Assembly (NCBI GenBank): GCA_035574255.1
Contig: DATLYZ010000031.1
Location: 142,197 to 206,196 of the forward strand
Direction: 5' to 3'
DNA length: 64,000 bases
From: Gemmatimonadales bacterium
Lineage (GTDB): Bacteria; Gemmatimonadota; Gemmatimonadetes; Gemmatimonadales; GWC2-71-9
Shown piece after piece: positions 17,559 through 53,955 of the stretch. A model generated the notes under the pieces. The model was not told the origin of the DNA. It did not search any database and worked only from the letters and a program-made list of their open reading frames with translations. The translations under genes and the position numbers were made by a program. Within the stretch, counting starts at the first letter, position 1. Every line of letters begins with the position of its first letter.

Positions 17559-17597
17559 GCGCGGCTCAGTCCTTTCCTGAAAGGAGTTGGGGGTGGT

Positions 17598-18473: not shown

Positions 18474-18527
18474 TGGAACTCCTGTACTTCCGCCAGGGCC
18501 GCCTGTACGGCCCCGGCCGGGACGACA

Positions 18528-18619: not shown

Positions 18620-18626
18620 CGGATGG

Positions 18627-20465: not shown

Positions 20466-20975
20466 AGGGGACCTCGTGATGAAGGGTGAGCCAGCAGCCA
20501 GGAGGCTGCCGATCTGCTCAGGGACGCCCTCGCCGCGGTCGCGCCGGCGAAACACGGCCGCCTCGAGAACACCCTGTTCCTGCAAACTTCCCATGACCAC
20601 AAAGCGCAACGGCCACCCGGCGTCAGCGCCAGGCGGCCGCGGATAGTCCGGACCGGAACGGATAGCAGCCCCGCCACCACGCAGACCGCGAGGCCCGGTG
20701 GCAAGGCTTCCACTGGGTTCCGATGCCCGACGCAGAGGTAATGCGGCAACAAGCGGCCACTGCAACCTCAACATCCGGAGGTCCGCTGGCCGGGACGGCC
20801 CCGCGGACTGGCGGTCAAGTTGTGCTGAGAAAGGGGGCTTGTTATCGGTCGAGGAGAGGCCCCGACTGTTGCGGCCCAACTGGTTCAGTTGGTTGTACCG
20901 TCCAGGGCCCAAAGTGTTCCCCGCCGAGCGGCCCCTGGAGGTGGAGGGCCAGTATACAGCCCACCCGGGAGTGTG

Positions 20976-33818: not shown

Positions 33819-34790
33819 CTACGTCTCCGGATAGAGCGACCGGCCCAGCACCTCGACATTGACCGCGCCGGCCTGATAGGTCTTCCCGGAGCTGGCCGAG
33901 GTGAGCCATACCGCGGCCGGGCTGAAGAGGAGGGGGTCGATCCGGTAGAAATCTTTCTCGTACCGTTCGAAAATCTCGTAGAACGGGGTGCCGTAGTCCC
34001 GGGACGAGGAGGAGGGGACCTGGGGCGCCAGGGCGGCGAGTTCGGCGTCGCTGGCCCGCACCAGGAAATGGGCCTGGCCGCCGTAGAGGATGCAATCGTT
34101 GGTGCGCCCGATGGCGCGGGTGTCGTTCCGGGCGGGCGGTGGGACCGGCGCCCAGCCGATGCCGCCGGCGACCCGTCTCACGTCGAAGCCCAGGGTCTCC
34201 ATCTTGTGGAGCGCCGTTTCCAGGATCCGGGCGGCGATCTGGGTGCCGCCCGCGAGGCTCGCCGTGGGGGCCACCACGAACGTCAGCTTGTCCGGCGCAA
34301 GGCCCGCCTTGGCGGCCACGTACTCCGCCACGGCCGGGGTCGGCAACTGGCGGGTTTCCAGCACCAGGACCCCCCGGGGCGCCTGCTCCGCGTAGCCGAG
34401 CTTTTCGTACAGCTCCTTTTCCACCCGCACGTGGGCCCGGAGGGGACCGGATCCCATGGCGAAGTACCGTTCGACCTGGATCGCCCACCCGGCGTACTGC
34501 GAGGCCATGCAGGCGACCGCGGGATGGTCGGTGCGCACCACGACGCCGGGGAAGTTCCGGCCCTCGAGCGCCACGGCGCCGTACTCCACCCGGCCCAGCC
34601 CCCCCATGCAGATCTCGCCCAGCAGGCGGCCCGCCTCGTACCCTCCCTCGACCTCGATTCCTGCGTCGATCACGCGCGCGCCGTTCGGCAGCCGGTGCAC
34701 CGCGACGCGGAGCAGGGCGGCGTCCTCGCACATCCGATCGGCGAGGGACCACGCGCGCTCGTTGAGCGCCAGGCCGGCGACAGGGTTCAT
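33819..34790 (-). CDS. mch: Methenyl-H4MPT cyclohydrolase
   Basis: Full-length match to my recollection of Mch (..VIDAGIEV.GG.EAG....ICMGGLG.. and ..ACMASQYAGW..). Confidence 0.9.
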   Translation of the reverse strand: MNPVAGLALNERAWSLADRMCEDAALLRVAVHRLPNGARVIDAGIEVEGGYEAGRLLGEICMGGLGRVEYGAVALEGRNFPGVVVRTDHPAVACMASQYAGWAIQVERYFAMGSGPLRAHVRVEKELYEKLGYAEQAPRGVLVLETRQLPTPAVAEYVAAKAGLAPDKLTFVVAPTASLAGGTQIAARILETALHKMETLGFDVRRVAGGIGWAPVPPPARNDTRAIGRTNDCILYGGQAHFLVRASDAELAALAPQVPSSSSRDYGTPFYEIFERYEKDFYRIDPLLFSPAAVWLTSASSGKTYQAGAVNVEVLGRSLYPET

Positions 34791-34826
34791 GCGGGCTCCT
34801 CGTTCAGCCGGCAGGCGGCGACCGCC

Positions 34827-35729
34827 TCACCGTCCTCCGTCGGCCAGAATCTTCCGCAAGTGGAAGTGATGCGGTCCCAGCTTGCCGCCGTAGTTGCCGG
34901 CCGTGATCACCCGGACCTGCGGCCGGCACGCGGCCAGCATCCCCACCCGCATGGCGCCTTCCACGGCCGCCGCATCGAGCCCGTTGATCACGATCTCCAG
35001 CACCGAGTTCACCTGGTCCGGCAGGGCGGTCTCGGTGACACGGCGGAGCGTGGGGCAGAACGCGTCGTTGGTGGAGGCGATCATCTTCTTGGATCGCCGG
35101 GAACCGACCTTGCTCCCGCTGCGCACGATGCCGCCGGGGAAAGGAAGGATGATCCCGGGCCGGCCGCTCATCGCCTCGACGGCGGCCTCCGCGGCCTCGA
35201 GGGCCGCCTCGGCGCTCTCGGCGAGGATCAGGAAGTTGCCCCCCCCGACCGCCCTCTGCATCCCGAACTTCTCCTGGACCAGGAACTCGCCTTCCATGAC
35301 CGGGATGCGCCAGTATCGCTCGCCCCCGATGACCTTGCTCGCCTGGAACCCGTCGCCGAAATGGCGGAGCACCGAGCCCACCGGGATCCGGTCGGGAGCC
35401 TGGGGGAGCCCGTCGTAGCAGGCCGTCGTGGGGCAGGTGAGCACGGTCTGCCCGATCCGCTCGACCAGCCGGGCCGGGAGGTCCTCCTTTCCCATGGTCA
35501 TGAGGAGCACGTGCACGCCGGGCCGGCCGTCCGGTGTCTCCTCCGGCCCGACCTCGCGTTCGATCCCCGCCTCGCACTTGCAGCCGATCACCGAGGTGGC
35601 AAAGCCGGTCAGCTTGAGCGCCGCCTCCCGGGCCCAGCGCGCGGTTCGGGCCGTGATCACCACCCGGGCCGCCCGCATGGTGAAGGCTTCGGCGAAGGTA
35701 TCCTCGATCAGGACGTCGCGGATGCGCAC
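34827..35729 (-). CDS. fhcD: Formylmethanofuran:H4MPT N-formyltransferase (Ftr/FhcD), copy 1
   Basis: ..IEDTFAEAF.M.A.R..ITA...WA..AA...TGFATSVIGC.CEAGIE.. and ..GGGNFLILAES... GTG start 2 nt after the fhcC stop. Confidence 0.9.
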   Translation of the reverse strand: MRIRDVLIEDTFAEAFTMRAARVVITARTARWAREAALKLTGFATSVIGCKCEAGIEREVGPEETPDGRPGVHVLLMTMGKEDLPARLVERIGQTVLTCPTTACYDGLPQAPDRIPVGSVLRHFGDGFQASKVIGGERYWRIPVMEGEFLVQEKFGMQRAVGGGNFLILAESAEAALEAAEAAVEAMSGRPGIILPFPGGIVRSGSKVGSRRSKKMIASTNDAFCPTLRRVTETALPDQVNSVLEIVINGLDAAAVEGAMRVGMLAACRPQVRVITAGNYGGKLGPHHFHLRKILADGGR

Positions 35730-35731
35730 GG

Positions 35732-36547
35732 TCAGCTCAGCACCAGGATTTCGCCCCGGCCGTCGTTCGCCAGGTCCCCCACGTACCGCCGGGCCCGGAC
35801 CCGGGTGTCGGGAACGTGGGCGAACCGGCCCGGCAGGTTGCGCCAGGAGCGGGCGAGCAGCGTGAGGAAACCGAGCCGGTGCTCGCCGCAATCGTTGAAC
35901 GTGGGGACCCACTCCGCCGGGGGCCGTTCCAGGATCAGCGTCCCCCGGCGCATCGCCAGGCCGGCGAAGGCGCCGACCCGGCCCGCCACGGCGATGGTCC
36001 CGGCGAGCATCCGGGCGGCGCAGTAGTCGCCGGCGTTGCCCTCGATCAGCACCGTCCCGCGCCGCATGCGGTCGCCCGCGCGGTCGCCCGCGTTCCCCCC
36101 GATCACGATGGTGCCTCCCTGCATCCCGCGCGGGTCGCCGGGAATCGCCGCGGCCAGGAAATCGCCCGCATGGCCGGTCACGTGCAGCAGGCCGCCCCGC
36201 ATTCCGGTTCCCGCGTAGGGCCCGACATTGCCGTGCACCTGGATCTGCCCGCCGCGCATCCCTGCCCCCACGTACGCGCCGGCGTCGCCATGGACCACGA
36301 GGCGGCCGTGACTCATCCCCTCGCCGATCCGGTCCAGCTTGTCGCACGCGTTCCGGATTTCGAGTTCGGCGGCGAAGCTGCCCGCGATATCGAACAGCGC
36401 GTCCACTCGCACCCGCCGGTTGCCGCACTGCAGCTCGATCGCCGCCACCTGGGCGGGGGACTTCCCGGCCAGGCGGTCAATGGAAAGCGGCGCAAGATCG
36501 ACCCGCTGGGAGGGTCGCTCCCGGAGCGTGAGGCTCAGCATGCCCAT
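35732..36547 (-). CDS. fhcC: Formyl-MFR dehydrogenase subunit C-like beta-helix protein (FhcC), copy adjacent to ftr1
   Basis: Repeated G-x-G-x-x-x-G turns (..VHGDAGAYVGAGMRGGQIQVHGNVGPYAGTGMRGGLLHVTGHAGDF..). Confidence 0.85.
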   Translation of the reverse strand: MGMLSLTLRERPSQRVDLAPLSIDRLAGKSPAQVAAIELQCGNRRVRVDALFDIAGSFAAELEIRNACDKLDRIGEGMSHGRLVVHGDAGAYVGAGMRGGQIQVHGNVGPYAGTGMRGGLLHVTGHAGDFLAAAIPGDPRGMQGGTIVIGGNAGDRAGDRMRRGTVLIEGNAGDYCAARMLAGTIAVAGRVGAFAGLAMRRGTLILERPPAEWVPTFNDCGEHRLGFLTLLARSWRNLPGRFAHVPDTRVRARRYVGDLANDGRGEILVLS

Positions 36548-36624
36548 GGCTGGAGTTCCCGACCTGACCGCGCGCGACTAGGGACCCTCGCCACCGCGCT
36601 GCCGGGTGCGAGGCATCGTGGTAC

Positions 36625-37458
36625 TCAGGCCGCCCGCCGGGTGGCCGGCCCGGAGTCGAGGAGGAGAATCTCCCCTCGATTGAGTTCCACGGCGTCGCCG
36701 GACCAGCGCTGATAGCGCCCGGTCATCTGCTCGTCCGTGACCGGGAGCCCCAGGCGGCGGAGGTGGGGAAGATACAGGCGCAGGAAGACCGGCCGGTAGG
36801 TGCAGGCGTAGGCGAAGGTGGGGAGCAGTTCCGCCGGTTCCATCGAGACGATGGTCCCGCGCTTCATCCCGGCGCCGGTGCGCCAACCCAGCCGCCCCAG
36901 CACCACGACGGTGCCGGCCAGCATGTTGACGCCGGTGAAGTCGCCGGCGTCGCGGCCCACGGCCACGACGCCCCGCCGCATCCCGCTCCCCGCCTCGTTG
37001 CCCACACTCCCCAGGACCACGATCTCGCCGCCCCGCATGCCGACGGCGCTCCCCCGGGGCGCGCTGCCCACCATGTGGCCGGCGTTGCCCCGGATCACGA
37101 TCCGCCCGCCGGTCATCTCCGGCCCCACCCAGTCGCCGGCGTCGCCTTCCACGATGATCTCCCCGCCGCTCATCCCGGCTCCCAGGTGCATCCCCACCGG
37201 TCCGTGGATCACGATCCGCCCCTCGGTCATCCCGGCGCCCACCCGCTTCACCCGCGAGAGATCGCCCTCGAGGTGGATCTCGCCATTGGCGGTGCCGGAA
37301 ACCCGGAAGAATTCGCCCAGTTCCGCGGCCTGGTTGCCGTGGACCACCGGGCGCCGGGCCACCTGGTCCGGCGAGAGGCCCGCGAGTCGCGCCGGGCACA
37401 GCGTCTCTGCCTCCAGCGGCACGGCGGGCGGCGTGTGCAGCGTGATCGCGAGGCTCAT
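36625..37458 (-). CDS. fwdC: Formyl-MFR dehydrogenase subunit C, copy adjacent to fwdA
   Basis: The same beta-helix repeats (..IHGPVGMHLGAGMSGGEIIVEGDAGDWVGPEMTGGRIVIRGNAGH..). ATGA overlap with fwdA. Confidence 0.85.
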   Translation of the reverse strand: MSLAITLHTPPAVPLEAETLCPARLAGLSPDQVARRPVVHGNQAAELGEFFRVSGTANGEIHLEGDLSRVKRVGAGMTEGRIVIHGPVGMHLGAGMSGGEIIVEGDAGDWVGPEMTGGRIVIRGNAGHMVGSAPRGSAVGMRGGEIVVLGSVGNEAGSGMRRGVVAVGRDAGDFTGVNMLAGTVVVLGRLGWRTGAGMKRGTIVSMEPAELLPTFAYACTYRPVFLRLYLPHLRRLGLPVTDEQMTGRYQRWSGDAVELNRGEILLLDSGPATRRAA

Positions 37459-39116
37459 GGGGCCGCGGCCGGAGTGCTGGGGACGACGCGGGCGTGAGGG
37501 ACGTAGCGGTCGGCCACGGGGTAGTTGGCGAACCGGATGGTGTAATACTCCTCGAAGAACGGCTCGATCACCCGCTCGATGCCGGGATCGTACCCCGGGG
37601 CCACGTGATAGACCTGGCCCTCGACGTCCGCCCGGAATTCGTGGTCTTCGATGACGAGCTCGCCGCCCTTGATCACGTACCGCGGCGCCGAGAACATCTT
37701 CTCCTTGTCCGGGTCGTCCTCGTAGATCGTGACATCCGCGTCCGCGCCGGCGCCGAGGTGCCCCTTGTCCGTGAGGCCGAGGATGCGGGCCGGCCCGGCG
37801 CGGGTGATGATGGCGATCTCGTACAGGGAGTATTCCCGCTCCTGGCAGTCGCGGAGCCCGCTCCGTTCCAGGGCCCGCTGATTGATCCGGCTCATCTGCT
37901 CCTTCCGGTATTCCCGGTCCATGAGGAGGCGGATGAGCCGCGGGTAGGTCATGAAGGAGCCGCCGTTCGGGTGGTCGGTGGAGAAGACCATCCGCCAGGG
38001 ATCTTCCGACAGGAGGAAGAGCTCCAGCCCGATCGCCCACTGGAGGGCGTTGGTGTACACCCGGTCCTGATAGGTGAACGGGACGATCCCGCAGCCGCTC
38101 TCCATCTCGGTGTCGGCGTTCACCCATTTCGCCCCGCCGAACTGGCGGAGCAGGTAGGCGAGCGGGGCGTCGGCGGTCATGCTGGTCGAGCGCCCGAACA
38201 TCACGGCACCCACGTCGGCCGTGATGTTCGGATGGGTGTTGACGAACTCCGCGATGTCCCGCGCCCTCGAGGTCGGGTTGTCGCGGCTCTTGCCCGCCAC
38301 CGACCCGTAGCTGTGGAACTGGATGTGGGTGATATGGGCCCGGCGGCCCTCGGCGAGCCGCATGGTCTCGAGCGTGGTCTCGTAGTTGCCCGTGTGCCCG
38401 AGGTTGTTGCAGTGAATGTGCACGGGGTGGGGGAGCCCCAGCGCGTTCGCGGCCTCGATGAAGGCGGCGATCACCCGCCGCGGGGTGAGGTCGAAGGGGC
38501 CGATCTTCTCGTCGAGCCGGGTGATGTTGGCGTTGCGCTGCCCCTTCCAGAGCTCATCGGCGCCCGGGTTGACCAGCTTCGGGGCGTAGGCCTTGGTGGC
38601 GCTGAGCCACCAGGCCAGGGCGTGCCGGAACTCCTCGGTCCGGCCCGCCTCGAGCAGCCGGTAGAGGAGCACGTTGTTCCCCACCAGCACGAAAAACCCC
38701 TTGTCGATGACCGGGGTGTCGTGCAGCTCCTCGAGCGTGTGCCGCGCCCCGAGCGGCGTGACCGCCGCTTCCATGGCGGTGGTGTACCCCAGGGCGGCGT
38801 AGCGGTAGCCGGTGGCGAAGGTGGAGGGGACGGTGCCGCCGGTGCCGGAGCGGGTGATCCGGGTCCGGGGGTGCACGTCCAGCCGGTGGTCTTCGGGCTG
38901 GACCTTGCGCGCGAGGTTCACCTTGGGGCCGGCGATGTGGCAATGGATATCCACGCCGCCCGGCATCACGACCATGCCCCGGGCGTCGATCTGGCGCGCC
39001 TCGGGCGGGACCTCCGCGACGATCTTCCCGTCGCGGATGCACACGTCGCGCACCGCGCCGTCAATGCCGTTGGCCGGGTCGTACACCCGCCCGTTGGTGA
39101 TCCGGAGCATCCCCAT
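37455..39116 (-). CDS. fwdA: Formyl-MFR dehydrogenase subunit A (amidohydrolase), copy 1
   Basis: ..ITNGRVYDP.NGIDG...D..I.DGKI.. and the metal-binding ..GGVDIHCHIAGPKVN... The start at Met11 has GAGGGA 4 nt upstream; 39146 (GTG) is also possible. Confidence 0.88.
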   Translation of the reverse strand: MGMLRITNGRVYDPANGIDGAVRDVCIRDGKIVAEVPPEARQIDARGMVVMPGGVDIHCHIAGPKVNLARKVQPEDHRLDVHPRTRITRSGTGGTVPSTFATGYRYAALGYTTAMEAAVTPLGARHTLEELHDTPVIDKGFFVLVGNNVLLYRLLEAGRTEEFRHALAWWLSATKAYAPKLVNPGADELWKGQRNANITRLDEKIGPFDLTPRRVIAAFIEAANALGLPHPVHIHCNNLGHTGNYETTLETMRLAEGRRAHITHIQFHSYGSVAGKSRDNPTSRARDIAEFVNTHPNITADVGAVMFGRSTSMTADAPLAYLLRQFGGAKWVNADTEMESGCGIVPFTYQDRVYTNALQWAIGLELFLLSEDPWRMVFSTDHPNGGSFMTYPRLIRLLMDREYRKEQMSRINQRALERSGLRDCQEREYSLYEIAIITRAGPARILGLTDKGHLGAGADADVTIYEDDPDKEKMFSAPRYVIKGGELVIEDHEFRADVEGQVYHVAPGYDPGIERVIEPFFEEYYTIRFANYPVADRYVPHARVVPSTPAAAP

Positions 39117-39178
39117 CGTTCCCTCGCTCCCGTCGCTCCCCCCCACCCCGGCCTGCCGAGGCCGGCTGCCGGCCCGCG

Positions 39179-40507
39179 CTACGCCGCCGGCGGGATCCGG
39201 TTGCCGCCCAGGAGGGACCGGACCCGGTCACGGATCGCCGTGAGCACCTGCTCGTCGCTCGGATACGGCGACTCGAAGGCCGGGCGCAGGGTGATGGGCA
39301 CGTCGTCCATGCGGTAGACGGTCCCCGCCACGTTGATCCCGTAGGTGGCGGTGGTGAAGGCCACCCGGGCCAGCTGGCTGGTCAGGGTCGCCTTGGGATC
39401 GAGCGTGATCACCGGAATCCGCTTCAGGTGCTCGATCGCTGCCTTGGGGAAGTTCGAGGCGGGGTCGCTCGCGATGACGAGGGCCGCGTCGGCCTCGCCG
39501 CGGACCAGGAGGTCCACCGTGGTGAACTCGCCGGGGTTGAAGCGGGGGAAGCCCCGACTGAAGTTCACCCCGAAGGGGAAGCCGGTCTGCCAGGACACCA
39601 CGTTGTCGGCGCCCGTCACGTTCCCGTGGCCCCGCACCGGCTTGGCCACGAAGTGGGTGAACTGGTTGAGGTCGGTCGCCAACGCGAGCAGGGCGCCCGA
39701 GTTGAAATGACGGCCCCGGTTCATGGTGAGCCCCATGCCGAAGAGCAGGGCTCCGAAGCGGCACGTCTTCATCCGGTGCGCGAGGTCCTCGAGCACCTCC
39801 AGCTTGACCCCGGTCCGCTGCTCCACCGACGGATCCACCGGCCGGCCCTTCACCAGCGCCCGGAGTGCCCACAGCACCTCGAAGTCCGAGCGCGGCTTCA
39901 CCTGGATGAAGATGTCCGCCACCGGGGTGCTCAGCGTGCGCCGCACGTCCACCAGCACCACGGTGCGGTCCTTCTTCCCGTTCGGGACGTACATGCCCTT
40001 GGGCGTCACCGCGTAGCGCGTGAACAGGCGCGGGTGTGCCTCCGCCGGGTTGCCGCCCCAGAACACGATGAGATCCGCCCGGTTCTTGATCTCGCCCAGC
40101 GTCGCGGTGCTCTCGCCCACGCCCTGGAAGGCGATGCCCGACGGGCCATGACAGACCGAGGTGGTGGTATCCACGGTGCCCCCGATCATGTCGGCGATGG
40201 CGACCGCCACCCGCTGCGCCTCGCAGGTGGTGTCGGACAGCCCGTAGACCACCGGGTAGCGCGCCTCGGCGAGGATCCGGGCCGCCTCCTCCACGGCTTC
40301 CTCGGTGGTCGCCTCCCGGCCCCCGATCAGGGCGAAGGGCCGGTCTTCGTGGCTGTGCTCCTTGAACCAGGCCTTGCCCAGGATGCAGGCGTTCTCCGCC
40401 TTCGTGATGCGCTTGTGCTCCAGGTCCACCGTGAGGACCATGTCGTCGCAGACGCACCCGCAGAACGTGCAGGTCGCGTCGGGCACCACCCGGACGTTCT
40501 CGCTCAT
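39179..40507 (-). CDS. fwdB: Formyl-MFR dehydrogenase subunit B, Mo/W-pterin type (Cys-His ligand motif retained)
   Basis: N-terminal CTFCGCVCDD, ..YGLSDTTCEAQ.., and ..TTSVCHGPSG.. (Cys119-His120). GGGGAGGA Shine-Dalgarno before the ATG at 40507. Confidence 0.88.
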   Translation of the reverse strand: MSENVRVVPDATCTFCGCVCDDMVLTVDLEHKRITKAENACILGKAWFKEHSHEDRPFALIGGREATTEEAVEEAARILAEARYPVVYGLSDTTCEAQRVAVAIADMIGGTVDTTTSVCHGPSGIAFQGVGESTATLGEIKNRADLIVFWGGNPAEAHPRLFTRYAVTPKGMYVPNGKKDRTVVLVDVRRTLSTPVADIFIQVKPRSDFEVLWALRALVKGRPVDPSVEQRTGVKLEVLEDLAHRMKTCRFGALLFGMGLTMNRGRHFNSGALLALATDLNQFTHFVAKPVRGHGNVTGADNVVSWQTGFPFGVNFSRGFPRFNPGEFTTVDLLVRGEADAALVIASDPASNFPKAAIEHLKRIPVITLDPKATLTSQLARVAFTTATYGINVAGTVYRMDDVPITLRPAFESPYPSDEQVLTAIRDRVRSLLGGNRIPPAA

Positions 40508-40511
40508 CGCG

Positions 40512-40775
40512 CTATCCTCCCCGGGTCTCCGCCTCCGTCTCGGCGACGGGCTCGACCTGGACATCGAGATTCTTCGAGATCGGCATCCCGCTCGCGGCCG
40601 TGTCGCCCGCCATGAGCTGGCTGGAGACCGGCCCGTAGGTCATGAACAGGATGCCGGGCGGGAGGTCCTTGGACTCCCGGCCCTTGCAGCGGACAATCAC
40701 TTCCCCCACGGCGGACCGGAGCCGCACCTTGCTGTTGTTGGTGAGGCCGAGGCGAGCCATGTCCTCGACGTTCAT
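40512..40775 (-). CDS. fwdD: Formyl-MFR dehydrogenase subunit D (molybdopterin-dinucleotide-binding barrel); ATG-defined part only
   Basis: MNVEDMARLGL..VRLRS..GEV.V.......LPPGILFM.YGP......(T)..SGMP..K...V.VEP. Homology continues upstream to about 40860 with no start codon (see findings). Confidence 0.7.
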   Translation of the reverse strand: MNVEDMARLGLTNNSKVRLRSAVGEVIVRCKGRESKDLPPGILFMTYGPVSSQLMAGDTAASGMPISKNLDVQVEPVAETEAETRGG

Positions 40776-40886
40776 CTCGACCGTCGAGCAGAGGTCGAGG
40801 TACTCCGGGCCGAGCTTCCCGGCGCAGAGCGCGGTGCCCTGTTTGTTCGAGCGCCCGCCGCCCTCCGCCTTCCTAGTATAGCGTCG

Positions 40887-42281
40887 CTACTCGGCGGAGG
40901 AAGAGGGGCCGTCGAGCAATCTCAGCATCTCCACGGTCCGGGTGAACTTCTCCCGCGGTTTTCCCCTGGGGGCGCCCCGAGCGACCTCGGCCTGGTCAAT
41001 GACCAGCCAGTCGTCGTAGCTCACCACCCGGAGCCGGTCCCGCCGGAGGGCCTCGAGCCCCTCCGCGCCGGGCTTCGGCCGGGGGTCGAGCGAGGGCAGA
41101 TCGGCCAAGAGCGAGGTCACCGTGGCCACGCTGTCCGCCCGGTTGGTTCCGATGATACCCGTGGGGCCCCGCTTGATCCAGCCGGAAGCATAGAGCCCCG
41201 GGATCACCTTGCCGCCCGAATCCACGATCCGCCCATCCCGGGTCGGGAAGACGCCCTGCTTGGCGTCGAAGGGGACCCCGGGAATCGCCACGCCCTTGTA
41301 CCCGATGCTCCTGAAAAGGAGCCCGCACGGCTGTTCGATCCGCTCCCCCGTTCCTACGGCCGACTGGTGAAAGGGCGGCCCTTCGAGCCGGTTGCGCTCC
41401 AGCACCACGGATTCCAGGCGGGCCCGGCCTCGGAGCTCCACGGGGCTCAGCAGGAATCGGATGAACACCCGCCGCCGGACGTTCCGCGGACTCCGGGCGG
41501 CGAACCCCTGGAGGATCTCGAGGTTCTTCTTCGCGACCGCGCCGGCGCGCTCGGTGAGTTCGGCCTCGCTGGCGGGGTTGAGCACGAGGTCGGCGGGGTC
41601 CACGATCGGATCGCAGTCGACCAGCTCCCCCAGCTCCCGGAATTCCTTGTTGGTGAACTTGGCCTGGGCCGGGCCGCGCCGGCCGATGAGGTGGATCTCG
41701 CGGATCCGGCTCTGCGCCAGCGATTCGAGCGCGTGCTCGGCGATATCGGTGTGCCGGAGCTCGTCCACCGTCTTGGCCAGGATGCGGCAGACATCGATCG
41801 CCACGTTGCCCTGCCCGATGATCACCGCGATCTCCTGGGACAGGTCGAACCTGCGGTCGCGGTAGTCGGGATGGCCGTTGTACCAGCCGACGAATTCCGT
41901 GGCGGTGTGGCTCCCGGGGAGGTCCTCGCCGGGAATGCCGAGGCGGCGGTCGCTCTCGGCGCCGGAGCAGAAGATCACGGCGTGATACGCCGCCTGGAGC
42001 TCGGCCACGCTCACGTCCCGCCCCACGGCGACGTTGCCGAAGAGCCGGAAGCCGGGGGTGCGGGCGATGGTGTCATAGACCCGGATCGGCTCCTTGAGCT
42101 TGGGGTGGTCCGGGGCCACCCCGTAGCGGACCAGGCCGAAAGGAGCCGGGAGCCGCTCGAACATGTCCACCTGCACCCTGCGGCCCGAGCGGAACAGGGC
42201 CTCCGCCGCGTAGAAGCCGCTGGGCCCGGAGCCCACGATGGCCACCCGGAGCGGGTTCTCTCCCGTGCCGAGCTCGTTCAC
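40887..42281 (-). CDS. FprA/adrenodoxin-reductase-type NADPH:ferredoxin oxidoreductase flavoprotein
   Basis: ..VAIVGSGPSGFYAA.. (FAD GxGxxG), ..FGLVRYGVAPDHP.. (family signature), second Rossmann ..VIIGQGNVAIDV... GTG start with GGAGGTG 6 nt upstream. TAG stop in frame with fwdD. Confidence 0.85.
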   Translation of the reverse strand: MNELGTGENPLRVAIVGSGPSGFYAAEALFRSGRRVQVDMFERLPAPFGLVRYGVAPDHPKLKEPIRVYDTIARTPGFRLFGNVAVGRDVSVAELQAAYHAVIFCSGAESDRRLGIPGEDLPGSHTATEFVGWYNGHPDYRDRRFDLSQEIAVIIGQGNVAIDVCRILAKTVDELRHTDIAEHALESLAQSRIREIHLIGRRGPAQAKFTNKEFRELGELVDCDPIVDPADLVLNPASEAELTERAGAVAKKNLEILQGFAARSPRNVRRRVFIRFLLSPVELRGRARLESVVLERNRLEGPPFHQSAVGTGERIEQPCGLLFRSIGYKGVAIPGVPFDAKQGVFPTRDGRIVDSGGKVIPGLYASGWIKRGPTGIIGTNRADSVATVTSLLADLPSLDPRPKPGAEGLEALRRDRLRVVSYDDWLVIDQAEVARGAPRGKPREKFTRTVEMLRLLDGPSSSAE

Positions 42282-42298
42282 CGAGGCACCTCCACGAT

Positions 42299-43195
42299 TC
42301 AGGCCAGGATCTCGTGCAACCGAAAGTGGTGGCGGCCGAGCTTGCCGCCGTAGTCGCCGGCGCTGATCCGGCGGATCCCGTGCGCGGCACCGAGGCGGAC
42401 CACCGCCTGGATGCCGGCCCGCATGGCGGCCGCCACATCGGCGGCGGTGAGACCGTCAATCACGATCTCCAGCACCGACGCGACCTCGGGGGTGAGCTGG
42501 GTGGCGGTAATGCCCCGCAGCGTGGGACAGAAGGCGTCGTTGGTGGAGGCGCGGAGGGACGTGTATTTGGAGCCGACCTTGGAGCCCGATCGGACGACCC
42601 CGCCGGGAAACGGCAGGATCACGTTGGGGATCTGCCGGATCGCCGCCACCGCACGCTCGCACGCCGCCAGCGCCTGCTCCTGGGACTCCGCCAGCACCAG
42701 GAAGTTGCCGCCCCCCACCCCGTTCGTCATGGCGGTGGTATCCTGGATCAGAAAATCGCCATCCATGACGGGGATCCGCCAGTAGCGGCGCCCGCCGATG
42801 AGCTTGGAGGTCTGGTACCCGTCGCCGAAGAACCGGAGGTACTTGCCGAGCGGGAGCGGGTCGCCCTGCTCGAGGCCGGCGAAGACCGCGCTCGTGGCCG
42901 CCGTGAGGAGGCACTGGCCTACCCGCCGCTCCACCTGCTTGACCAGTTCCTTGGCCGAGACCGCAAAGAGGAGCAGGGCGAGCCCGGGCCGGCCGTCCGG
43001 GGTCTCGGCCGGGTCGAGTTCGCGTTCGATCCCCGCCTCACAGCCGCACCCGATGACCGACGTGGCGAACCCGGTCGCGGCGGTCGCGGCATGATAGGCC
43101 CACTCCAGCGTCTGGGCGGTGACGATGAGGCGCGTCGCCTTCATGTCGAAGGCTTCCGCGAACGCGTCGTCAATGGTGACGCCGTTGAGGTTCAT
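42299..43195 (-). CDS. fhcD: Formylmethanofuran:H4MPT N-formyltransferase (Ftr/FhcD), copy 2
   Basis: MNLNGVTIDDAFAEAFDMKATRLIVTA..TGFATSVIGCGCEAGIE..GGGNFLVLAES.. It is collinear with copy 1 over the full length. Confidence 0.9.
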   Translation of the reverse strand: MNLNGVTIDDAFAEAFDMKATRLIVTAQTLEWAYHAATAATGFATSVIGCGCEAGIERELDPAETPDGRPGLALLLFAVSAKELVKQVERRVGQCLLTAATSAVFAGLEQGDPLPLGKYLRFFGDGYQTSKLIGGRRYWRIPVMDGDFLIQDTTAMTNGVGGGNFLVLAESQEQALAACERAVAAIRQIPNVILPFPGGVVRSGSKVGSKYTSLRASTNDAFCPTLRGITATQLTPEVASVLEIVIDGLTAADVAAAMRAGIQAVVRLGAAHGIRRISAGDYGGKLGRHHFRLHEILA

Positions 43196-44862
43196 GCCAT
43201 TCGGTCCCGGCAGGGGTGGGTCACGACCTCCGCGCCGTGCCCGAACGCCCGCATCTCGTCGTCGCTGATCCGGAAGTTGGCGGCGCGGATCGTATGGAAG
43301 CGCGCGAAGTGATCCGCCACGCGCCGCTCGATCGCCGGGTCGAAGGCGGGGGCCACGGCATGATACCGGCCCCACGTGACCCGGACGATCGCTCCGTCCC
43401 GCACCACCAGCTCGCCGTCCTTGAAGACGAAGAGCGGGGTCCGGAACATCCGCTCCCGGTCCGGGTCGTCCCGGTAGACCGTGATGTCGGCCGCCGCCCC
43501 GGGGCCGAGGTGCCCGCGATCGGCGAGCCCCAGGATCCGGGCCGGCGCCGCCCGGGTGAGGATCGCGATCTCGTAGAGCGTGTACTCGCGTTCGATCGAG
43601 GCGAGCGTCGTCATCCGGCGGGCCTCGGGATGGAGCAGCGCCAGGCGCTCGTTCCGGAAGGTCCGGTCCATCAGGAGCCGGATCAGGTGGGGATAGCTCG
43701 TGAACGGCGCCCCGTTCGGGTGGTCGGTGGTGAGGAAGACGCGCCAGGGATCGTTCACCAGCAGAAAGATCTCGAGCCCGATCGCCCACTGGAGCGCGTT
43801 GACGAAGTTCCGGTCGCGATAGCGGAACGGTACCACCCCGCACCCCGCGTCACACTCGATGTCCATCACCACGAACTTGCGGGGCCGGCCCAGCGGCGCG
43901 TTGCGGTGCTGCGCCATGCTGTCCCCCGAGACGGTCACCGTCTGCCCGAAGAGGACCTGGCCCACGTCGCAGCTCACGTTGGGGAAGCGGTTCACGGCCT
44001 CCGCGATCCGGGCCGCGGCGGAGGAGAACTGGCGATCACCCTCGGTGCCATAGCTGTGGAACTGGATGTGGGTCAGATGGATCGGCAGCCCCTCGGCGGC
44101 ACCCATGGTCGCCAGGGTCGTCTCCGCGTTCCCCGGCACCCCGAGATTGCAGCCGTGGACGTGCAGCGGGTGCGGGAGCCCGAGCTCGTGCACCGCGCGA
44201 GTGAGCGCCCGGAGGACGTCGCGCGGGGTGACTCGGTAATACGGGTGGGGCTCGTCGAGATCGAGGGTCCGCTGGTTGAACTTGAAGGCGGAGATCCCGC
44301 CGGGGTTCACGACCTTGATAGCGAGGCAGCGGGTGGCCTGGAGCATCCAGGCCACGTAATCGTTGATCACCGGCTGCGGTTCCCGAGCGGCGAGCAGCCG
44401 GAGCAGGAAGTCGTCGCTCCCGAGCATCAGGTACCCGCCCTTGTCCACGATCGGCGTGTCGCCCATCTCCAGATGCGCCTGGCGGGCGTTGGACGGTACT
44501 ACCGCCGGCTCGAAACAGGCGGTGTACCCCATCTCCGCGTAGCGATACCCGGTGGCGAGCGTGCCGGGTGCCGCGTGGCCCGCCGAGGCCCGGGTGCGGC
44601 CGGTGCGGGGGACCGGATCGGCCCGGTGATCCTGCGGGAGCAGCGCCCGCGCGATGTTGAGCTTCCCGCCGCCGATGTGGGTGTGCAGGTCGATGGCCCC
44701 AGCCATGACCACCGTGCCTGACAGATTGAACTCCTCGTCGATCCGTTCCTCGGGGCCCGGCGGCGCGATGATCCGGCCGTCGCGCACATAGAGATCGCGC
44801 ACCTCGCCGTCCACGCCGTGCGCCGGATCGTAGACGCGGCCTCCGGTGAGCTTGAGCAGCAT
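43192..44862 (-). CDS. fhcA: Formyltransferase/hydrolase complex subunit A (amidohydrolase), copy 2
   Basis: MLLKLTGGRVYDPAHGVDGEVRDLYVRDGRI.. and ..GAIDLHTHIGGGKLN... ORF-track start trimmed to Met111. Confidence 0.88.
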   Translation of the reverse strand: MLLKLTGGRVYDPAHGVDGEVRDLYVRDGRIIAPPGPEERIDEEFNLSGTVVMAGAIDLHTHIGGGKLNIARALLPQDHRADPVPRTGRTRASAGHAAPGTLATGYRYAEMGYTACFEPAVVPSNARQAHLEMGDTPIVDKGGYLMLGSDDFLLRLLAAREPQPVINDYVAWMLQATRCLAIKVVNPGGISAFKFNQRTLDLDEPHPYYRVTPRDVLRALTRAVHELGLPHPLHVHGCNLGVPGNAETTLATMGAAEGLPIHLTHIQFHSYGTEGDRQFSSAAARIAEAVNRFPNVSCDVGQVLFGQTVTVSGDSMAQHRNAPLGRPRKFVVMDIECDAGCGVVPFRYRDRNFVNALQWAIGLEIFLLVNDPWRVFLTTDHPNGAPFTSYPHLIRLLMDRTFRNERLALLHPEARRMTTLASIEREYTLYEIAILTRAAPARILGLADRGHLGPGAAADITVYRDDPDRERMFRTPLFVFKDGELVVRDGAIVRVTWGRYHAVAPAFDPAIERRVADHFARFHTIRAANFRISDDEMRAFGHGAEVVTHPCRDRMA

Positions 44863-44891
44863 GCGGCGGGTCCGATTCGTGAGAGCCGAGG

Positions 44892-46160
44892 TCAGAGAGC
44901 CCGTTCGATCGCGTCCAGCACCTGGGCCACGCCGGGCAGCGCCGAATCGCGAAGCGAGCGGAGCGGGAGGGCCACCACCCGGTCGGTGCGGAACAGATGC
45001 CCGGCGTGATCCACGCCCGGCGTCCCGACCGGGATGACGACGGCGGGCTCCTCGGCGAAGCGCATGCCCGGCCTCCCCAGCACGATGGCCGGGACCGGGG
45101 CGGCGGGCGGCCCACGCCGCTCGTCGAAGCTCGAGATCCAGACCAGCACATCCGCCTCGCCGCTCGCGAGCAGCCGCTCGGCGGCGAAACACCAGGGGTC
45201 GTACTCCGGATACCCGCGGGCGTACGAGGTCCGCGCCGCGAAACCGGTCTGCCAGAGGTGGACCGCATCCACCGTCACGTCGCCGTCACTGCCGCCCAGC
45301 GGCAGCCCCGCGAAGCGCGTCGTGCGATTCAGGTCCTTGACGAGCTCGCTCAACGCCTGGACGGCCAGATCGGCGTGCGGGAAGTCGAGATCCGCCGCCG
45401 CCCACGCCACGACCCCGTACCGCGCTCGGCGCAGGCGCTGCGCCAGCTCCCGCCAGGTGGCGAGCGGCACCCCCGCCACCGAGCCGACCTCGAGCCGCCG
45501 GCCCGCGACCAGGGCGCGCAAGACCCCCAGCGCCTCGGGCAGCCGGCGCACCTCGCACGGAATCGCGCGGGGGACCAGGCCCGAGACCGCCCCCGCCCCC
45601 TCCGGCGGAGCCGGGCCCAGGAAGACCACCTCCACCGGCTCGGCCGCTTCGAACATTCGCTCCCGCACCAGGCACCGCTCGAGGAACCGCGGAAAACGCC
45701 GGGTCACGTCGCCGATCACGATGAGCAGATCGACCCGGTTGCGGATCTCGGAGAGCGTGGTGGTGATCCACCCGCGATCCTGGAGCGCCAGGGTGTTCCG
45801 AATGGCGGCGGCGGCGTTCATGTGATCCAAGACCCCACCCAGCCGCTCCGCCAGGCGGGCAGCGGCGCGGGCGCCGGCGACATCAGTGCCGAGGCCGGCG
45901 AAGAGCGGCTGGCGTGCCTGGCGCAAGAGCACGGCCGCCTCCTGGACGGCCTGCTCCAGGCTCGCCGCCCGACCCCTGACCCGGGGCTGCTCGAGCTCGG
46001 TTCCGGCCTGATGAGCGAAGGCGGCGGTGCTGATCGAACAACCGTTCGCCTGCACCGCGAGCCGGCCATTCGCCGGGCTCACGACCAGGTCGTCGCAGAG
46101 CAGGCCGCAGAACGGACAGGTGACGTCGCGGGCTTCGGCCGCGAGTGGAGGTGGAGCCAT
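44892..46160 (-). CDS. fhcB: Formyltransferase/hydrolase complex subunit B (FwdB homologue lacking the Cys-His ligand motif)
   Basis: CPFCGLLCDD is retained. Where copy 1 has TTCEAQ and SVCHGPS, this copy reads DVAGAR and AAAAIRN. Confidence 0.85.
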   Translation of the reverse strand: MAPPPLAAEARDVTCPFCGLLCDDLVVSPANGRLAVQANGCSISTAAFAHQAGTELEQPRVRGRAASLEQAVQEAAVLLRQARQPLFAGLGTDVAGARAAARLAERLGGVLDHMNAAAAIRNTLALQDRGWITTTLSEIRNRVDLLIVIGDVTRRFPRFLERCLVRERMFEAAEPVEVVFLGPAPPEGAGAVSGLVPRAIPCEVRRLPEALGVLRALVAGRRLEVGSVAGVPLATWRELAQRLRRARYGVVAWAAADLDFPHADLAVQALSELVKDLNRTTRFAGLPLGGSDGDVTVDAVHLWQTGFAARTSYARGYPEYDPWCFAAERLLASGEADVLVWISSFDERRGPPAAPVPAIVLGRPGMRFAEEPAVVIPVGTPGVDHAGHLFRTDRVVALPLRSLRDSALPGVAQVLDAIERAL

Positions 46161-52463: not shown

Positions 52464-53345
52464 CTACTTGGCCGCCGACTGCTTCGCCGCCAGCAGCCGG
52501 CGCGCCACGTCGGCGATGGTCTCGGCGTCGAGCACCAGATCGTTCCGGGTGAAGAGTTCGGCCACGCAGGCCTTGTGCAGCTTGGTCTTGAAGTTGCCCA
52601 CCCCGAAGGCGCCGAACGCGATCGTCCCGTGCCGCTCGACGCCGGCATCGTTCAGCTCGATGCCCTCGATGCCGAGCGGTTCCACCGCGTTCAGGTCCAC
52701 GGCGACCTTGATCCCGCGGTTCGCCCAGGCGTTCCGCGGCACCATGAGGACCCCGGCCGCCCCCGCGTTGAGCAGAATGTCCACCCCCTCCAGCAGGGGG
52801 GCCGCCTCGGCGGGGCCGCCCAGGACGGCGGCCTGGACCTGCACGTGAAACCGCTCGCCGATGCTCCGCCGCGCCTTGTCGCCCTGCTCGGGACGCCGGG
52901 AGGTGATCGTCACCTGCGCGCCGTCCCTCGCGAGCAGGCCGGCCGCGCGCTGCCCCACCGGCCCCGTCCCCCCCACCACGAGCACCCGCTTGCCGGCCAC
53001 GGTGCCCAGCGCCTCCTCGATCTTCACGACCGCCGCGACGGCGGTCGTATTCGAGCCGTTGGAGTCGAGCATCACGGAGACCCGGAACGGTCCGAACATC
53101 GAGTCCAGCGCGATGGCCAGCAGGTGTTCCCCCGCGGACATGTTGCTCCCGCCGATCCAGACGGCCGTGTTGTGCAGGTCCTTGGGCCCCCGGGTGAAAA
53201 TGCAGCCATGGATGAGGTCGCGGACGTCGCCCTCGACCACCCCGCCGTAGCTCAGGATGTTGTCCACCCCCGCATCATAGGCCACCACCTGGTCGAACAC
53301 GCTGGGAAGCCGGGAACTGTCCAGCTGGAGGAGAAGCTTGCGCAT
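52464..53345 (-). CDS. mtdB: NAD(P)-dependent methylene-H4MPT dehydrogenase
   Basis: MRKLLLQLD....SVFD.V.AYDAG.D....Y.GV...D...L..G.IFTRG.. and Rossmann VVGGTGPVG. Confidence 0.88.
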   Translation of the reverse strand: MRKLLLQLDSSRLPSVFDQVVAYDAGVDNILSYGGVVEGDVRDLIHGCIFTRGPKDLHNTAVWIGGSNMSAGEHLLAIALDSMFGPFRVSVMLDSNGSNTTAVAAVVKIEEALGTVAGKRVLVVGGTGPVGQRAAGLLARDGAQVTITSRRPEQGDKARRSIGERFHVQVQAAVLGGPAEAAPLLEGVDILLNAGAAGVLMVPRNAWANRGIKVAVDLNAVEPLGIEGIELNDAGVERHGTIAFGAFGVGNFKTKLHKACVAELFTRNDLVLDAETIADVARRLLAAKQSAAK

Positions 53346-53390
53346 CGGAGATTTGTCCGGTCGGGAAAGAGGTTCGGTGTAACCCAACGA

Positions 53391-53421
53391 GAGAGGGGCG
53401 GGGGGAGGCCCCGCCCCTCTC
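53391..53421 (-). terminator. Perfect 13-bp GC hairpin between fae and mtdB (attenuator or stabiliser)
   Basis: GAGAGGGGCGGGG-GGAGG-CCCCGCCCCTCTC, 22 nt after the fae stop. It is followed on the transcript by ..UCGUUGGGUU.. (weak U-tract). Confidence 0.5.
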
Positions 53422-53442
53422 GACTACCGGCACCCGGGTCGC

Positions 53443-53955
53443 TCAGGCGTTGTCCACACCACTGAACGGGTGCTTGGCCGTCTTGGCGCCGGCCAGGACC
53501 GAGTCCACCGTGGGCAAGCCCTTGAGCGCGCGCTCGATCGCCTGCTTGGTGGCCTCGTAGTTGTACTGGAAGATCTTCTTGTTGTCCTCGGCCTGCCAGT
53601 GGATGAAGACCCCGACCAGGATGCACCAATCGTTGGCCTTGTCCTTGGGAATGATCCCGGACGCAACACTGTCCACCACGGCCCGGGCCACCGCGGCCTG
53701 GGCGGGGCCGAACATCTGCACCGCCTGCTTGGCGCCCTTGATGGTGACCTTGTTGAACAGGAGCGTGTCGGGTTTGGCCGGGAGGTTCGGCGTCACGACG
53801 GCGAGCAAGGTGGTGAAGCCGTCCTTGTTGTTGCTGAGGGCGTTGCAGAAGGCGGCGCCGGCATGGCCGCTCTTGCTGCCGATGATCAGATCCACGTGGG
53901 CAACCTCGTTGCCCTCGCCGACCAGCGACTCGCCGATGAAAAAGTCCGCTGCCAT
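53443..53955 (-). CDS. fae: Formaldehyde-activating enzyme
   Basis: 170 aa. ..[20 protein letters not shown].. ..[25 protein letters not shown]...[10 protein letters not shown].. ..VGVFIHW.A.D..KI..YNYEATK... GGAGGG Shine-Dalgarno before the ATG at 53955. Confidence 0.93.

What the first reader, a model, noticed from the sequence alone, without database searches (positions are those of the whole stretch)
34827..46160. Two paralogous formyl-methanofuran enzyme sets in one operon: a redox-competent Fwd-like set and a degenerate Fhc-like set
The minus-strand collinear block reads fhcB2-fhcA2-ftr2-fprA-fwdD-fwdB-fwdA-fwdC-fhcC-ftr1, followed by mch. Gaps are 0-80 nt and several start/stop pairs overlap as ATGA. 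Subunits A, B, C and Ftr/D each occur twice. The B paralogues align residue for residue but differ at the metal site. Gene 39179..40507 has ..YGLSDTTCEAQ.. and ..TTTSVCHGPSG.. (Cys119-His120). This is the counterpart of the Sec/Cys-His pair in FdhH (V-U-H-G-P-S) and of the tungsten-ligand Cys of archaeal FwdB, and the gene is preceded by fwdD. Gene 44892..46160 reads ..GLGTDVAGAR.. and ..HMNAAAAIRNT.. at the same positions. That matches the non-redox FhcB of methylotrophic bacteria, which only supports hydrolysis to formate. Both copies keep the N-terminal Cys cluster (CTFCGCVCDD and CPFCGLLCDD). The organism may therefore both hydrolyse formyl-MFR to formate and oxidise it directly to CO2, or run the Fwd set reductively. 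The fprA-fwdDBAC module looks like an insertion inside an fhc operon.
Basis: partly seen in the sequence, partly recalled or inferred. Interest (0 to 1): 0.7.

Follow-up and report, generated by a model that had tools for sequence, protein, structure and literature searches.

The report
Twin formyl-methanofuran enzyme sets, one redox
A soil Gemmatimonadales methanol-user carries, in one gene block, both the ordinary bacterial enzyme that releases formate and a little-studied, archaeal-type metal enzyme that should burn the same intermediate straight to CO2; in this particular strain a small deletion has clipped one gene of the second set.

Summary
Eleven collinear minus-strand genes (33819-46160) hold two copies each of subunits A, B and C and of Ftr. 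They also hold one fwdD and one FprA/adrenodoxin-reductase-type flavoprotein.

The B subunit at 39179-40507 aligns to Methanothermobacter FwdB with Cys119-His120 on Cys118-His119. It keeps Arg288 and the four [4Fe-4S] cysteines. The B subunit at 44892-46160 has Ala-Ala and Gly at those sites.

Three corrections apply:
- The window lacks 88 nt that four near-identical assemblies carry. This removes the fwdD start codon and eight codons, so this strain's redox set may be crippled.
- FhcB2 is a "long" FhcB that keeps the Fe-S cysteines, unlike Methylorubrum FhcB.
- The Fwd cassette is not peculiar to this genome. The genome scan confirmed 554 relatives, and the 80 best loci are all MAGs (Gemmatimonadales, Gamma/Betaproteobacteria including USCγ, Chloroflexota, Planctomycetota). 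All have the catalytic residues; 72% of loci with wide flanks carry FprA and 53% a 7Fe ferredoxin.

Best reading: Fhc releases formate, and Fwd oxidises formyl-methanofuran to CO2, probably passing electrons to NADP+. It is a new variant of a known kind. No biochemistry on it turned up in my searches.

The parts
44892..46160 (-). fhcB2: 'long' non-redox B subunit. It keeps the four [4Fe-4S] cysteines. Cys118/His119 are replaced by Ala/Ala and Arg288 by Gly.
   Evidence: AF2 model pLDDT 82, TM 0.85 to 5t5i_B and 0.82 (target-normalised) to 6s6y_B.
43192..44862 (-). fhcA2: amidohydrolase (formyl-MFR hydrolase). All binuclear-metal ligand motifs are present.
   Evidence: TIGR03121 761 bits; motif alignment.
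42299..43195 (-). ftr2 = fhcD: formyltransferase of the Fhc clade. ATGA overlap with fhcA2.
   Evidence: NJ tree.
40887..42281 (-). FprA/adrenodoxin-reductase-type NADPH:ferredoxin oxidoreductase.
   Evidence: 399 bits, full length, to M. tuberculosis FprA 1lqt. Adjacent to the fwd cassette in 26 of 36 wide loci.
40855..40861 (.). Junction of an 88-nt deletion relative to four near-identical assemblies. It removes the intergenic hairpin and the fwdD start plus 8 codons.
   Evidence: Alignment A1. The X1 contig carries the deleted form; X2 and X3 loose ends carry the intact form.
40512..40860 (-). fwdD remnant (molybdopterin-cap domain). It has no canonical start before the ATG at 40775. Intact orthologue: 123 aa.
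39179..40507 (-). fwdB: Mo/W-bisPGD-type catalytic subunit with Cys119-His120, Arg-Gly-His and four Fe-S cysteines.
   Evidence: dN/dS 0.03-0.12.
37455..39116 (-). fwdA: amidohydrolase of the Fwd clade.
36625..37458 (-). fwdC: beta-helix subunit of the Fwd clade, with an Fhc-like C-terminal region.
35732..36547 (-). fhcC: beta-helix subunit of the Fhc clade, separated from fhcBAD by the fprA-fwdDBAC block.
34827..35729 (-). ftr1: formyltransferase of a Gemmatimonadales clade. It is the only Ftr in Fwd-only loci.
33819..34790 (-). mch: methenyl-H4MPT cyclohydrolase, the last gene of the block.
52464..53955 (-). Context: fae and an mtdB-like gene, the upstream steps of the H4MPT formaldehyde oxidation route.
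17130..20585 (-). Context: PQQ alcohol/methanol dehydrogenase (XoxF-like), a solute-binding protein and a cytochrome c.

Best explanation
The block is a composite C1-oxidation operon of a Gemmatimonadales methylotroph. It encodes two different fates for the formyl group carried by methanofuran.

Set 1 is fhcB2-fhcA2-ftr2 plus fhcC. It is a formyltransferase/hydrolase (Fhc). Ftr2 moves the formyl group from H4MPT to methanofuran, FhcA2 hydrolyses it, and formate is released. FhcB2 and FhcC are scaffolds.

Set 2 is fwdD-fwdB-fwdA-fwdC plus ftr1. It belongs to a conserved bacterial clade of true molybdenum- or tungsten-pterin formyl-methanofuran dehydrogenases. FwdA hydrolyses formyl-MFR. The formate is oxidised to CO2 at the FwdB/FwdD metal site. 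Electrons leave through the FwdB [4Fe-4S] cluster. The most likely route from there is a 7Fe ferredoxin and then the adjacent FprA reductase to NADP+.

Shown: gene content, catalytic residues, conservation, linkage.
Inferred: metal cofactor binding, direction, electron path, and Ftr docking on FwdC.

In this particular strain an 88-nt deletion has removed the fwdD start, so set 2 may be impaired or newly inactivated.
For: - FwdB aligns over its full length to archaeal FwdB/FmdB (E 1e-100 to 1e-118), with Cys119-His120 on Cys118-His119.
- In 81 of 82 orthologues from 80+ loci, the four Fe-S cysteines, Cys-His and Arg-Gly-His are invariant; the 82nd is N-terminally truncated.
- fwdD is present in 36 of 36 loci with wide flanks, FprA in 26 and a 7Fe ferredoxin in 19, on either side of the cassette in different phyla.
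- FprA scores 399 bits to 1lqt, and the ferredoxin scores 108 bits to Azotobacter FdI.
- FwdB is the most constrained gene (dN/dS 0.03-0.12) and FhcB2 the least (0.24-0.30).
- FwdB sits on short branches sister to the archaeal enzymes, while FhcB2 groups with Methylorubrum FhcB.
- Both A subunits keep all metal ligands.
- Fwd-only loci (fdx-fprA-fwdDBAC-ftr1-mch) exist in Gemmatimonadales.
- The context is oxidative: XoxF-like dehydrogenase, fae, mtdB, mch.
- The FwdC C-terminus aligns to the FhcC region that docks FhcD, but not to archaeal FwdC (Hemmann 2019, PMC6926001).
Against: - There are no biochemical or expression data; no RNA runs were found.
- No ferredoxin gene lies in this 64-kb window.
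- 10 of 36 wide loci lack FprA, including all Chloroflexota loci among them, so the FprA link is not universal.
- fwdD in the window lacks its start.
- Mo/W cofactor biosynthesis and transport genes were not seen, though the window is too small to judge.
- The AF2 model of FwdB is poor around the active-site loops (pLDDT 66).
- ±10-kb flanks cannot exclude an Fhc set elsewhere in the 'Fwd-only' genomes.
Confidence: 0.6

Rival explanations
1. In this strain the Fwd module is a freshly inactivated relic. Without a translatable full-length FwdD, the pterin site cannot be capped, and only Fhc works.
For: - An 88-nt deletion removes the start codon and 8 codons. The next in-frame start is codon 38.
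- The deletion form stands alone in the X1 contig at depth 46.
- Hemmann 2019 (PMC6926001) calls the FwdD domain critical for capping the tungstopterin.
Against: - All other genes of the set are intact and identical in length to those of the intact assemblies.
- Contigs drop minority variants, so an intact subpopulation is possible. Library or assembly artefacts at a GC hairpin cannot be excluded.
- An 87-aa product from ATG 40775 might retain some function.
Confidence: 0.3
2. The Fwd set is redox-active, but FprA and the ferredoxin are not its partners. Electrons go to another acceptor, and FprA serves something else such as cofactor biosynthesis.
For: - FprA is missing from 10 of 36 wide loci, and the ferredoxin from 17.
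- There is no ferredoxin in the window.
- The flanks are rich in H4MPT/methanofuran biosynthesis genes.
Against: FprA keeps its adjacency to the fwd cassette while switching sides between phyla. It lies upstream in Gemmatimonadales and Betaproteobacteria, and downstream in Gammaproteobacteria. That pattern argues for functional linkage.
Confidence: 0.25
3. The Fwd set is only a second Fhc isoenzyme. It releases formate, and the conserved Cys-His-Arg and cluster are structural leftovers.
For: - It carries its own Ftr and an Fhc-like FwdC C-terminus.
- The only bacterial enzyme of this family characterised so far is non-redox (PMC6926001).
Against: - The catalytic triad, cluster cysteines and FwdD are invariant across phyla, and dN/dS is very low.
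- Real scaffolds (FhcB2, B') lose exactly these residues.
Confidence: 0.1
4. The Fwd set runs reductively, fixing CO2 onto methanofuran.
For: Archaeal homologues do so, and the enzyme chemistry is reversible (PMC11656701).
Against: - By established potentials, CO2/formyl-MFR lies near -530 mV (PMC11656701) and NADPH near -320 mV. No bifurcating module, hydrogenase or polyferredoxin FwdF/G is linked.
- The neighbours are oxidative methylotrophy genes.
Confidence: 0.05

Closest known systems
Archaeal tungsten/molybdenum formyl-methanofuran dehydrogenase FwdABCD(FG) (Methanothermobacter wolfeii 5T5I; Ca. Ethanoperedens 8RJA)
   Same: - FwdB has Cys-His, Arg and an N-terminal [4Fe-4S].
- The FwdD cap is a separate gene.
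- FwdA is a binuclear amidohydrolase and FwdC a beta-helix.
- Gene order is fwdDBAC.

   Different: - There is no FwdE/F/G polyferredoxin.
- An Ftr gene lies inside or beside the operon.
- The FwdC C-terminus is Fhc-like.
- The linked partners are a 7Fe ferredoxin and an AdR-type NADPH reductase.
- The hosts are bacteria with XoxF-type methylotrophy genes.
- In this window fwdD is 5'-truncated.
Bacterial formyltransferase/hydrolase complex FhcABCD (Methylorubrum extorquens 6S6Y)
   Same: - Set 1 has the order B-A-D(-C).
- FhcB2 lacks Cys118, His119 and Arg288.
- It has no fwdD of its own.
- FhcA ligands are kept.
- The FhcC C-terminus aligns throughout.

   Different: - FhcB2 is about 60 residues longer and keeps the Fe-S domain with four invariant cysteines.
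- fhcC is separated from fhcBAD by the fprA-fwdDBAC block.
fwdDBA-ftr-fwdC operon noted in Hakuba actinobacterial single-cell genomes (Merino et al. 2020, PMC7325909)
   Same: A bacterial operon with fwdD, a Cys118-bearing FwdB with an Fe-S domain, and an embedded ftr.
   Different: That case lies in an anaerobic Wood-Ljungdahl context without H4MPT biosynthesis genes. No Fhc paralogues and no FprA/ferredoxin linkage are reported there.
Mycobacterium tuberculosis FprA with 7Fe ferredoxin (1LQT)
   Same: Full-length homology (399 bits). A 7Fe FdI-type ferredoxin is encoded beside it in many related loci.
   Different: Here it is embedded in a formyl-methanofuran operon, and no ferredoxin is encoded in this window.

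Membership tests
Redox formyl-methanofuran dehydrogenase (Fwd/Fmd) | Metal-ligand Cys/Sec followed by His in subunit B (FwdB Cys118-His119) | tested here: met
   Cys119-His120 aligns to Cys118-His119 of 5t5i_B and to Sec-His of 9sfi_Q. Invariant in all 82 orthologues.
Redox formyl-methanofuran dehydrogenase (Fwd/Fmd) | Catalytic Arg288 (RGH motif) in subunit B | tested here: met
   The KPVRGHGNVTG motif is aligned. R-G-H is invariant.
Redox formyl-methanofuran dehydrogenase (Fwd/Fmd) | N-terminal [4Fe-4S] domain with four cysteines | tested here: met
   C13, C16, C20 and C41 are invariant.
Redox formyl-methanofuran dehydrogenase (Fwd/Fmd) | FwdD cap domain encoded and translatable | tested here: inconclusive
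   FwdD homology is present, but the window lacks the start codon and 8 codons. It is intact in four sister assemblies and in 36 of 36 wide loci.
Redox formyl-methanofuran dehydrogenase (Fwd/Fmd) | FwdA binuclear-metal ligands (HxH, carboxy-Lys, His, His, Asp) | tested here: met
Redox formyl-methanofuran dehydrogenase (Fwd/Fmd) | Bound Mo/W-bis-pyranopterin cofactor and formyl-MFR-dependent electron transfer | not testable with these tools
   This needs protein chemistry. No cofactor biosynthesis genes lie in the 64-kb window.
Redox formyl-methanofuran dehydrogenase (Fwd/Fmd) | Polyferredoxin FwdF/G electron wire | tested here: not met
   None is found in the window or in the 80 related loci. 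A 7Fe ferredoxin and FprA are found instead.
Formyltransferase/hydrolase complex (Fhc) | B subunit without Cys118, His119 and Arg288 | tested here: met
   FhcB2 has Ala, Ala and Gly at these positions.
Formyltransferase/hydrolase complex (Fhc) | B subunit lacks the N-terminal Fe-S domain (as in M. extorquens FhcB) | tested here: not met
   FhcB2 keeps the domain, and the four cysteines are invariant in 32 of 32 relatives. The model superposes on full-length FwdB.
Formyltransferase/hydrolase complex (Fhc) | Formyltransferase (FhcD) encoded with A and B; C subunit with the Fhc-type C-terminal region | tested here: met
   ftr2 overlaps fhcA2 and falls in the FhcD clade. FhcC aligns to 6s6y_C over residues 6-269.
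Formyltransferase/hydrolase complex (Fhc) | Release of free formate | not testable with these tools
   This needs an enzyme assay.
FprA/adrenodoxin-reductase NADPH:ferredoxin reductases | Full-length homology with the two dinucleotide-binding folds | tested here: met
   399 bits to 1lqt_A over residues 10-455. The GSGPSG motif is aligned.

The most novel reading that the evidence does not exclude
The fwdD-B-A-(ftr)-C cassette encodes a bacterial five-subunit formyltransferase/dehydrogenase. It takes formyl-H4MPT to CO2 without free formate. It delivers the electrons through a 7Fe ferredoxin and FprA to NADP+.

This would be an evolutionary intermediate between archaeal Fwd and bacterial Fhc. 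It would also be a hitherto uncounted CO2-forming, NADPH-yielding step in uncultured soil and marine methylotrophs and methanotrophs, including USCγ.
Probability: 0.35. Interest if true: 0.8.

Novelty: new variant of a known kind. Interest (0 to 1): 0.6.

Why it matters
Textbook bacterial methylotrophy ends the H4MPT route with Fhc releasing formate. [quoted passage not shown]

A conserved, catalytically intact Fwd in aerobic-type methylotroph genomes would add a second, formate-free exit that yields low-potential electrons or NADPH. It often sits next to Fhc.

This would have three consequences:
- It would change carbon and reductant budgets inferred from metagenomes, where annotation names both kinds 'formylmethanofuran dehydrogenase'.
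- It would offer oxygen-exposed relatives of a CO2-fixing enzyme for biocatalysis.
- It would supply living intermediates (long FhcB, B', Fhc-like FwdC) for the Fwd-to-Fhc evolutionary path proposed from structures.

Tried and rejected
- Selenocysteine variants. Eight FwdB orthologues seemed to lack Cys-His. That was an artefact of my regex (CHGPT instead of CHGPS). All have TGT/TGC Cys.
- Readthrough fusion FprA-FwdD. After the deletion the frames coincide across a TAG codon. Intact assemblies show separate genes with a hairpin between them, so this is coincidence.
- Ferredoxin in the window: none.
- RNA evidence: no runs.
A mixed population therefore remains untested.
- Unsupervised clustering of neighbour ORFs, to find Mo/W cofactor genes: swamped by shadow ORFs of high-GC DNA.
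- Intrinsic terminators and sigma-70 promoters: nothing above shuffles.
- AF2 of FwdB: low confidence (pLDDT 66, TM 0.59), so it is not used as evidence.
- Cultured hosts: tblastn of plasmids and chromids found only FhcB-type hits below 30% identity.
- Adam et al. 2019 (Nat Microbiol), which may treat bacterial Fwd/Fhc phylogeny, is not held.
Full report
**What is in the window**

The window has 71% G+C, so open reading frames alone are uninformative. A third-position G+C frame plot and a start-codon survey resolve eleven collinear minus-strand genes between 33819 and 46160.

Pfam and NCBIfam identify them in the order of transcription:
- a B subunit (44892-46160; TIGR03129 310.8 bits, below the 327.8 cut-off)
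- an A subunit (43192-44862)
- Ftr (42299-43195)
- a pyridine-nucleotide flavoprotein (40887-42281)
- FwdD (frame 40512-40886)
- a second B (39179-40507; TIGR03129 503 bits)
- a second A (37455-39116)
- two C subunits (36625-37458 and 35732-36547)
- a second Ftr (34827-35729)
- Mch (33819-34790)

Gaps run from -4 to 77 nt, with two ATGA overlaps. The paralogue pairs match at E 1e-45 to 1e-179.

**Context**

The flanks hold fae, an mtdB-like gene, ATP-grasp and pterin/methanofuran biosynthesis genes, and pabB-like genes. A PQQ alcohol/methanol dehydrogenase with a solute-binding protein and a cytochrome c lies at 17-20.6 kb. This is an H4MPT formaldehyde-oxidation island of a probable methanol user. 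The closest named homologues are Gemmatimonadales MAGs.

**The two B subunits**

The B at 39179-40507 aligns end to end with archaeal FwdB/FmdB structures (E 1e-100 to 1e-118). Cys119-His120 falls on Cys118-His119 of M. wolfeii FwdB and on Sec-His of a selenoprotein homologue. The Arg-Gly-His motif and the N-terminal cysteines are kept.

The B at 44892-46160 aligns more weakly to FwdB (130 bits) and to Methylorubrum FhcB (113 bits). It has Ala-Ala for Cys-His and Gly for Arg288. Hemmann et al. (PMC6926001) define exactly these residues, FwdD and the Fe-S domain as what Fhc has lost.

FhcB2 departs from that definition in one respect: it keeps the N-terminal domain. Its four cysteines are invariant in 32 of 32 relatives. 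A confident model (pLDDT 82) superposes on full-length FwdB (TM 0.85) as well as on FhcB. It is a 'long' FhcB, not a copy of the Methylorubrum type.

**The other subunits**

Both A subunits keep the HxH, carboxy-lysine, His, His and Asp motifs.

Neighbour-joining trees of homologues from related loci give these placements:
- 36625-37458 falls in the Fwd-linked C clade.
- 35732-36547 falls in the Fhc-linked C clade.
- ftr2 falls in the FhcD clade.
- ftr1 falls in a Gemmatimonadales clade that is the only Ftr in Fwd-only loci.

Both C subunits align to Methylorubrum FhcC through the C-terminal region that docks FhcD. Alignments to archaeal FwdC stop near residue 220. This suggests, as an inference, that the bacterial Fwd also carries its formyltransferase.

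**A deletion in fwdD**

FwdD homology begins 27 codons upstream of the first possible start codon. Alignment with four independent, otherwise 99-100% identical assemblies (L001-L004) shows that the window lacks 88 nt. The missing stretch is a strong GC hairpin plus the fwdD start and eight codons (MAEIMTLI). It is bounded by a CGGCGG microhomology at about 40855-40861.

Intact FwdD (123 aa) aligns over residues 5-117 to solved FwdD chains.

Logan contigs of run X1 reproduce the deleted form at depth 46. Contigs of X2 and X3 end at the junction, with overhangs that match the intact form. The deletion is thus probably real in one sampled population. An artefact or a mixed population could not be excluded.

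All other genes have the same lengths as in the intact assemblies.

**The cassette elsewhere**

The 80 best are all MAGs. They come from Gemmatimonadales, Gamma- and Betaproteobacteria (including USCg_Taylor, Ca. Methylophosphatis and Ca. Oxydemutatoraceae), Caldilineaceae/Anaerolineae/Ardenticatenia, Planctomycetota and Alphaproteobacteria, at 72-98% identity.

My synteny table shows a core of fwdD-fwdB-fwdA-ftr-fwdC. Of 36 loci with wide flanks:
- 36 have fwdD
- 26 have the FprA homologue
- 19 have a 101-aa ferredoxin
- 16 have a second, non-redox B set

FprA is a full-length homologue of M. tuberculosis FprA/adrenodoxin reductase (399 bits). The ferredoxin is of the Azotobacter 7Fe FdI type. 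The pair lies upstream of fwdD in Gemmatimonadales and Betaproteobacteria, and downstream of fwdC in Gammaproteobacteria. No ferredoxin gene lies in this window.

In gammaproteobacterial loci, fhcB-A-ftr-C is contiguous beside the fwd cassette.

Other Gemmatimonadales carry the Fwd set alone, or the Fwd set plus a third kind of degenerate B (B').

**Constraint**

Across 82 orthologues, the FwdB Fe-S cysteines, Cys-His and Arg-Gly-His are invariant apart from one N-terminally truncated sequence. FhcB2-type and B'-type proteins vary at exactly these sites.

FwdB forms a tight, short-branched clade sister to the archaeal enzymes. FhcB2 groups with Methylorubrum FhcB on long branches.

All genes are under purifying selection. 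FwdB is the most constrained (dN/dS 0.03-0.12) and FhcB2 the least (0.24-0.30).

FwdB is 72-83% identical between Gemmatimonadales and Proteobacteria. Mch and MtdB of the same loci are only 33-46% identical. That suggests lateral spread of the cassette, unusually strong constraint, or both.

**Mechanism**

The best-supported reading is a division of labour. Fhc hydrolyses formyl-methanofuran to formate. In model methylotrophs formate is the branch point to assimilation; this is established knowledge and was not tested here. Fwd oxidises the same intermediate to CO2.

By published potentials, CO2/formyl-MFR lies near -0.53 V (PMC11656701). Electron flow to ferredoxin and NADP+ is therefore downhill, and the reverse is not. 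No polyferredoxin or bifurcating module is linked. The oxidative direction is therefore favoured.

Cofactor binding, direction, the FprA route and Ftr docking are inferences. For this strain, the fwdD deletion makes function uncertain.

**Novelty**

Earlier papers noted the following:
- bacterial FwdB homologues (Wells 2023, PMC10100899)
- fwdD in NC10, Firmicutes and Synergistetes (Chistoserdova 2016, PMC5020050)
- one fwdDBA-ftr-fwdC operon with Cys118 in actinobacterial single cells (Merino 2020, PMC7325909)

A 2024 specialist review treats only Fhc as the bacterial relative. My searches found no paper on several points: a redox Fwd beside Fhc in methylotroph-type bacteria, the FprA/7Fe-ferredoxin linkage, the long FhcB, or the Fhc-like FwdC. 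Adam et al. 2019 could not be read.

I file this as a new variant of a known kind.

Noticed in passing
window 46290-47047: The roughly 960-nt gap between fhcB2 and the divergent ATP-grasp gene is filled by a tandem array (periods 144, 94 and 235 nt). It holds six exact copies of TCGTCATTCCCGCGCACGCGGGRATCCAGG, against 0 expected by chance. The sister assembly L001 is 304 nt longer here and has runs of N, so copy number differs or is unresolved.
   Followed up: partly
window 17130-20585: A PQQ alcohol/methanol dehydrogenase (652 aa), a solute-binding protein and a c-type cytochrome lie in a row. This is the layout of xoxF-xoxJ-xoxG, and it points to lanthanide-type methanol oxidation in a Gemmatimonadales genome.
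   Followed up: no
window 44892-46160 (alignment A3): In the FhcB2 family the former active-site stretch is not random. D112-H113-M114-N115 and N122 are invariant in 32 of 32 sequences, as are the four Fe-S cysteines. The 'degenerate' subunit may therefore keep a cluster and a conserved pocket of unknown use.
   Followed up: partly
L010, L012, L014, L019, L020 (about 14.8-18.4 kb in each locus): Other Gemmatimonadales carry a third kind of set, B'-A'-ftr-C', after the fwd cassette. B' is 37-39% identical to FwdB. It keeps the Fe-S cysteines and Arg288 but has Thr/Pro/Ala-Ala for Cys-His. It branches between FwdB and FhcB.
   Followed up: partly
L007 9406-14803 and 19224-21320: An Anaerolineae contig has two Cys-His-bearing fwdD-fwdB-fwdA sets (82% and 58% identical to the window's FwdB) and no FprA.
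   Followed up: no
L002 1-3848: One near-identical NCBI assembly has unrelated sequence upstream of fwdD (no fprA) and a shortened fwdA (362 aa). This is either a contig chimera or a rearranged strain.
   Followed up: no
window 29513-30205 (+), 32978-33748 (-): A methanofuran biosynthesis gene (4HFCP synthase family, by the L001 gene table) and an EthD-domain protein sit within the island. The EthD gene lies directly after mch in all sister assemblies.
   Followed up: no
loci L005-L088 versus the window: FwdB is 72-83% identical between phyla, while Mch and MtdB of the same loci are 33-46% identical. The fwd cassette seems to move, or to be constrained, independently of the H4MPT island.
   Followed up: partly
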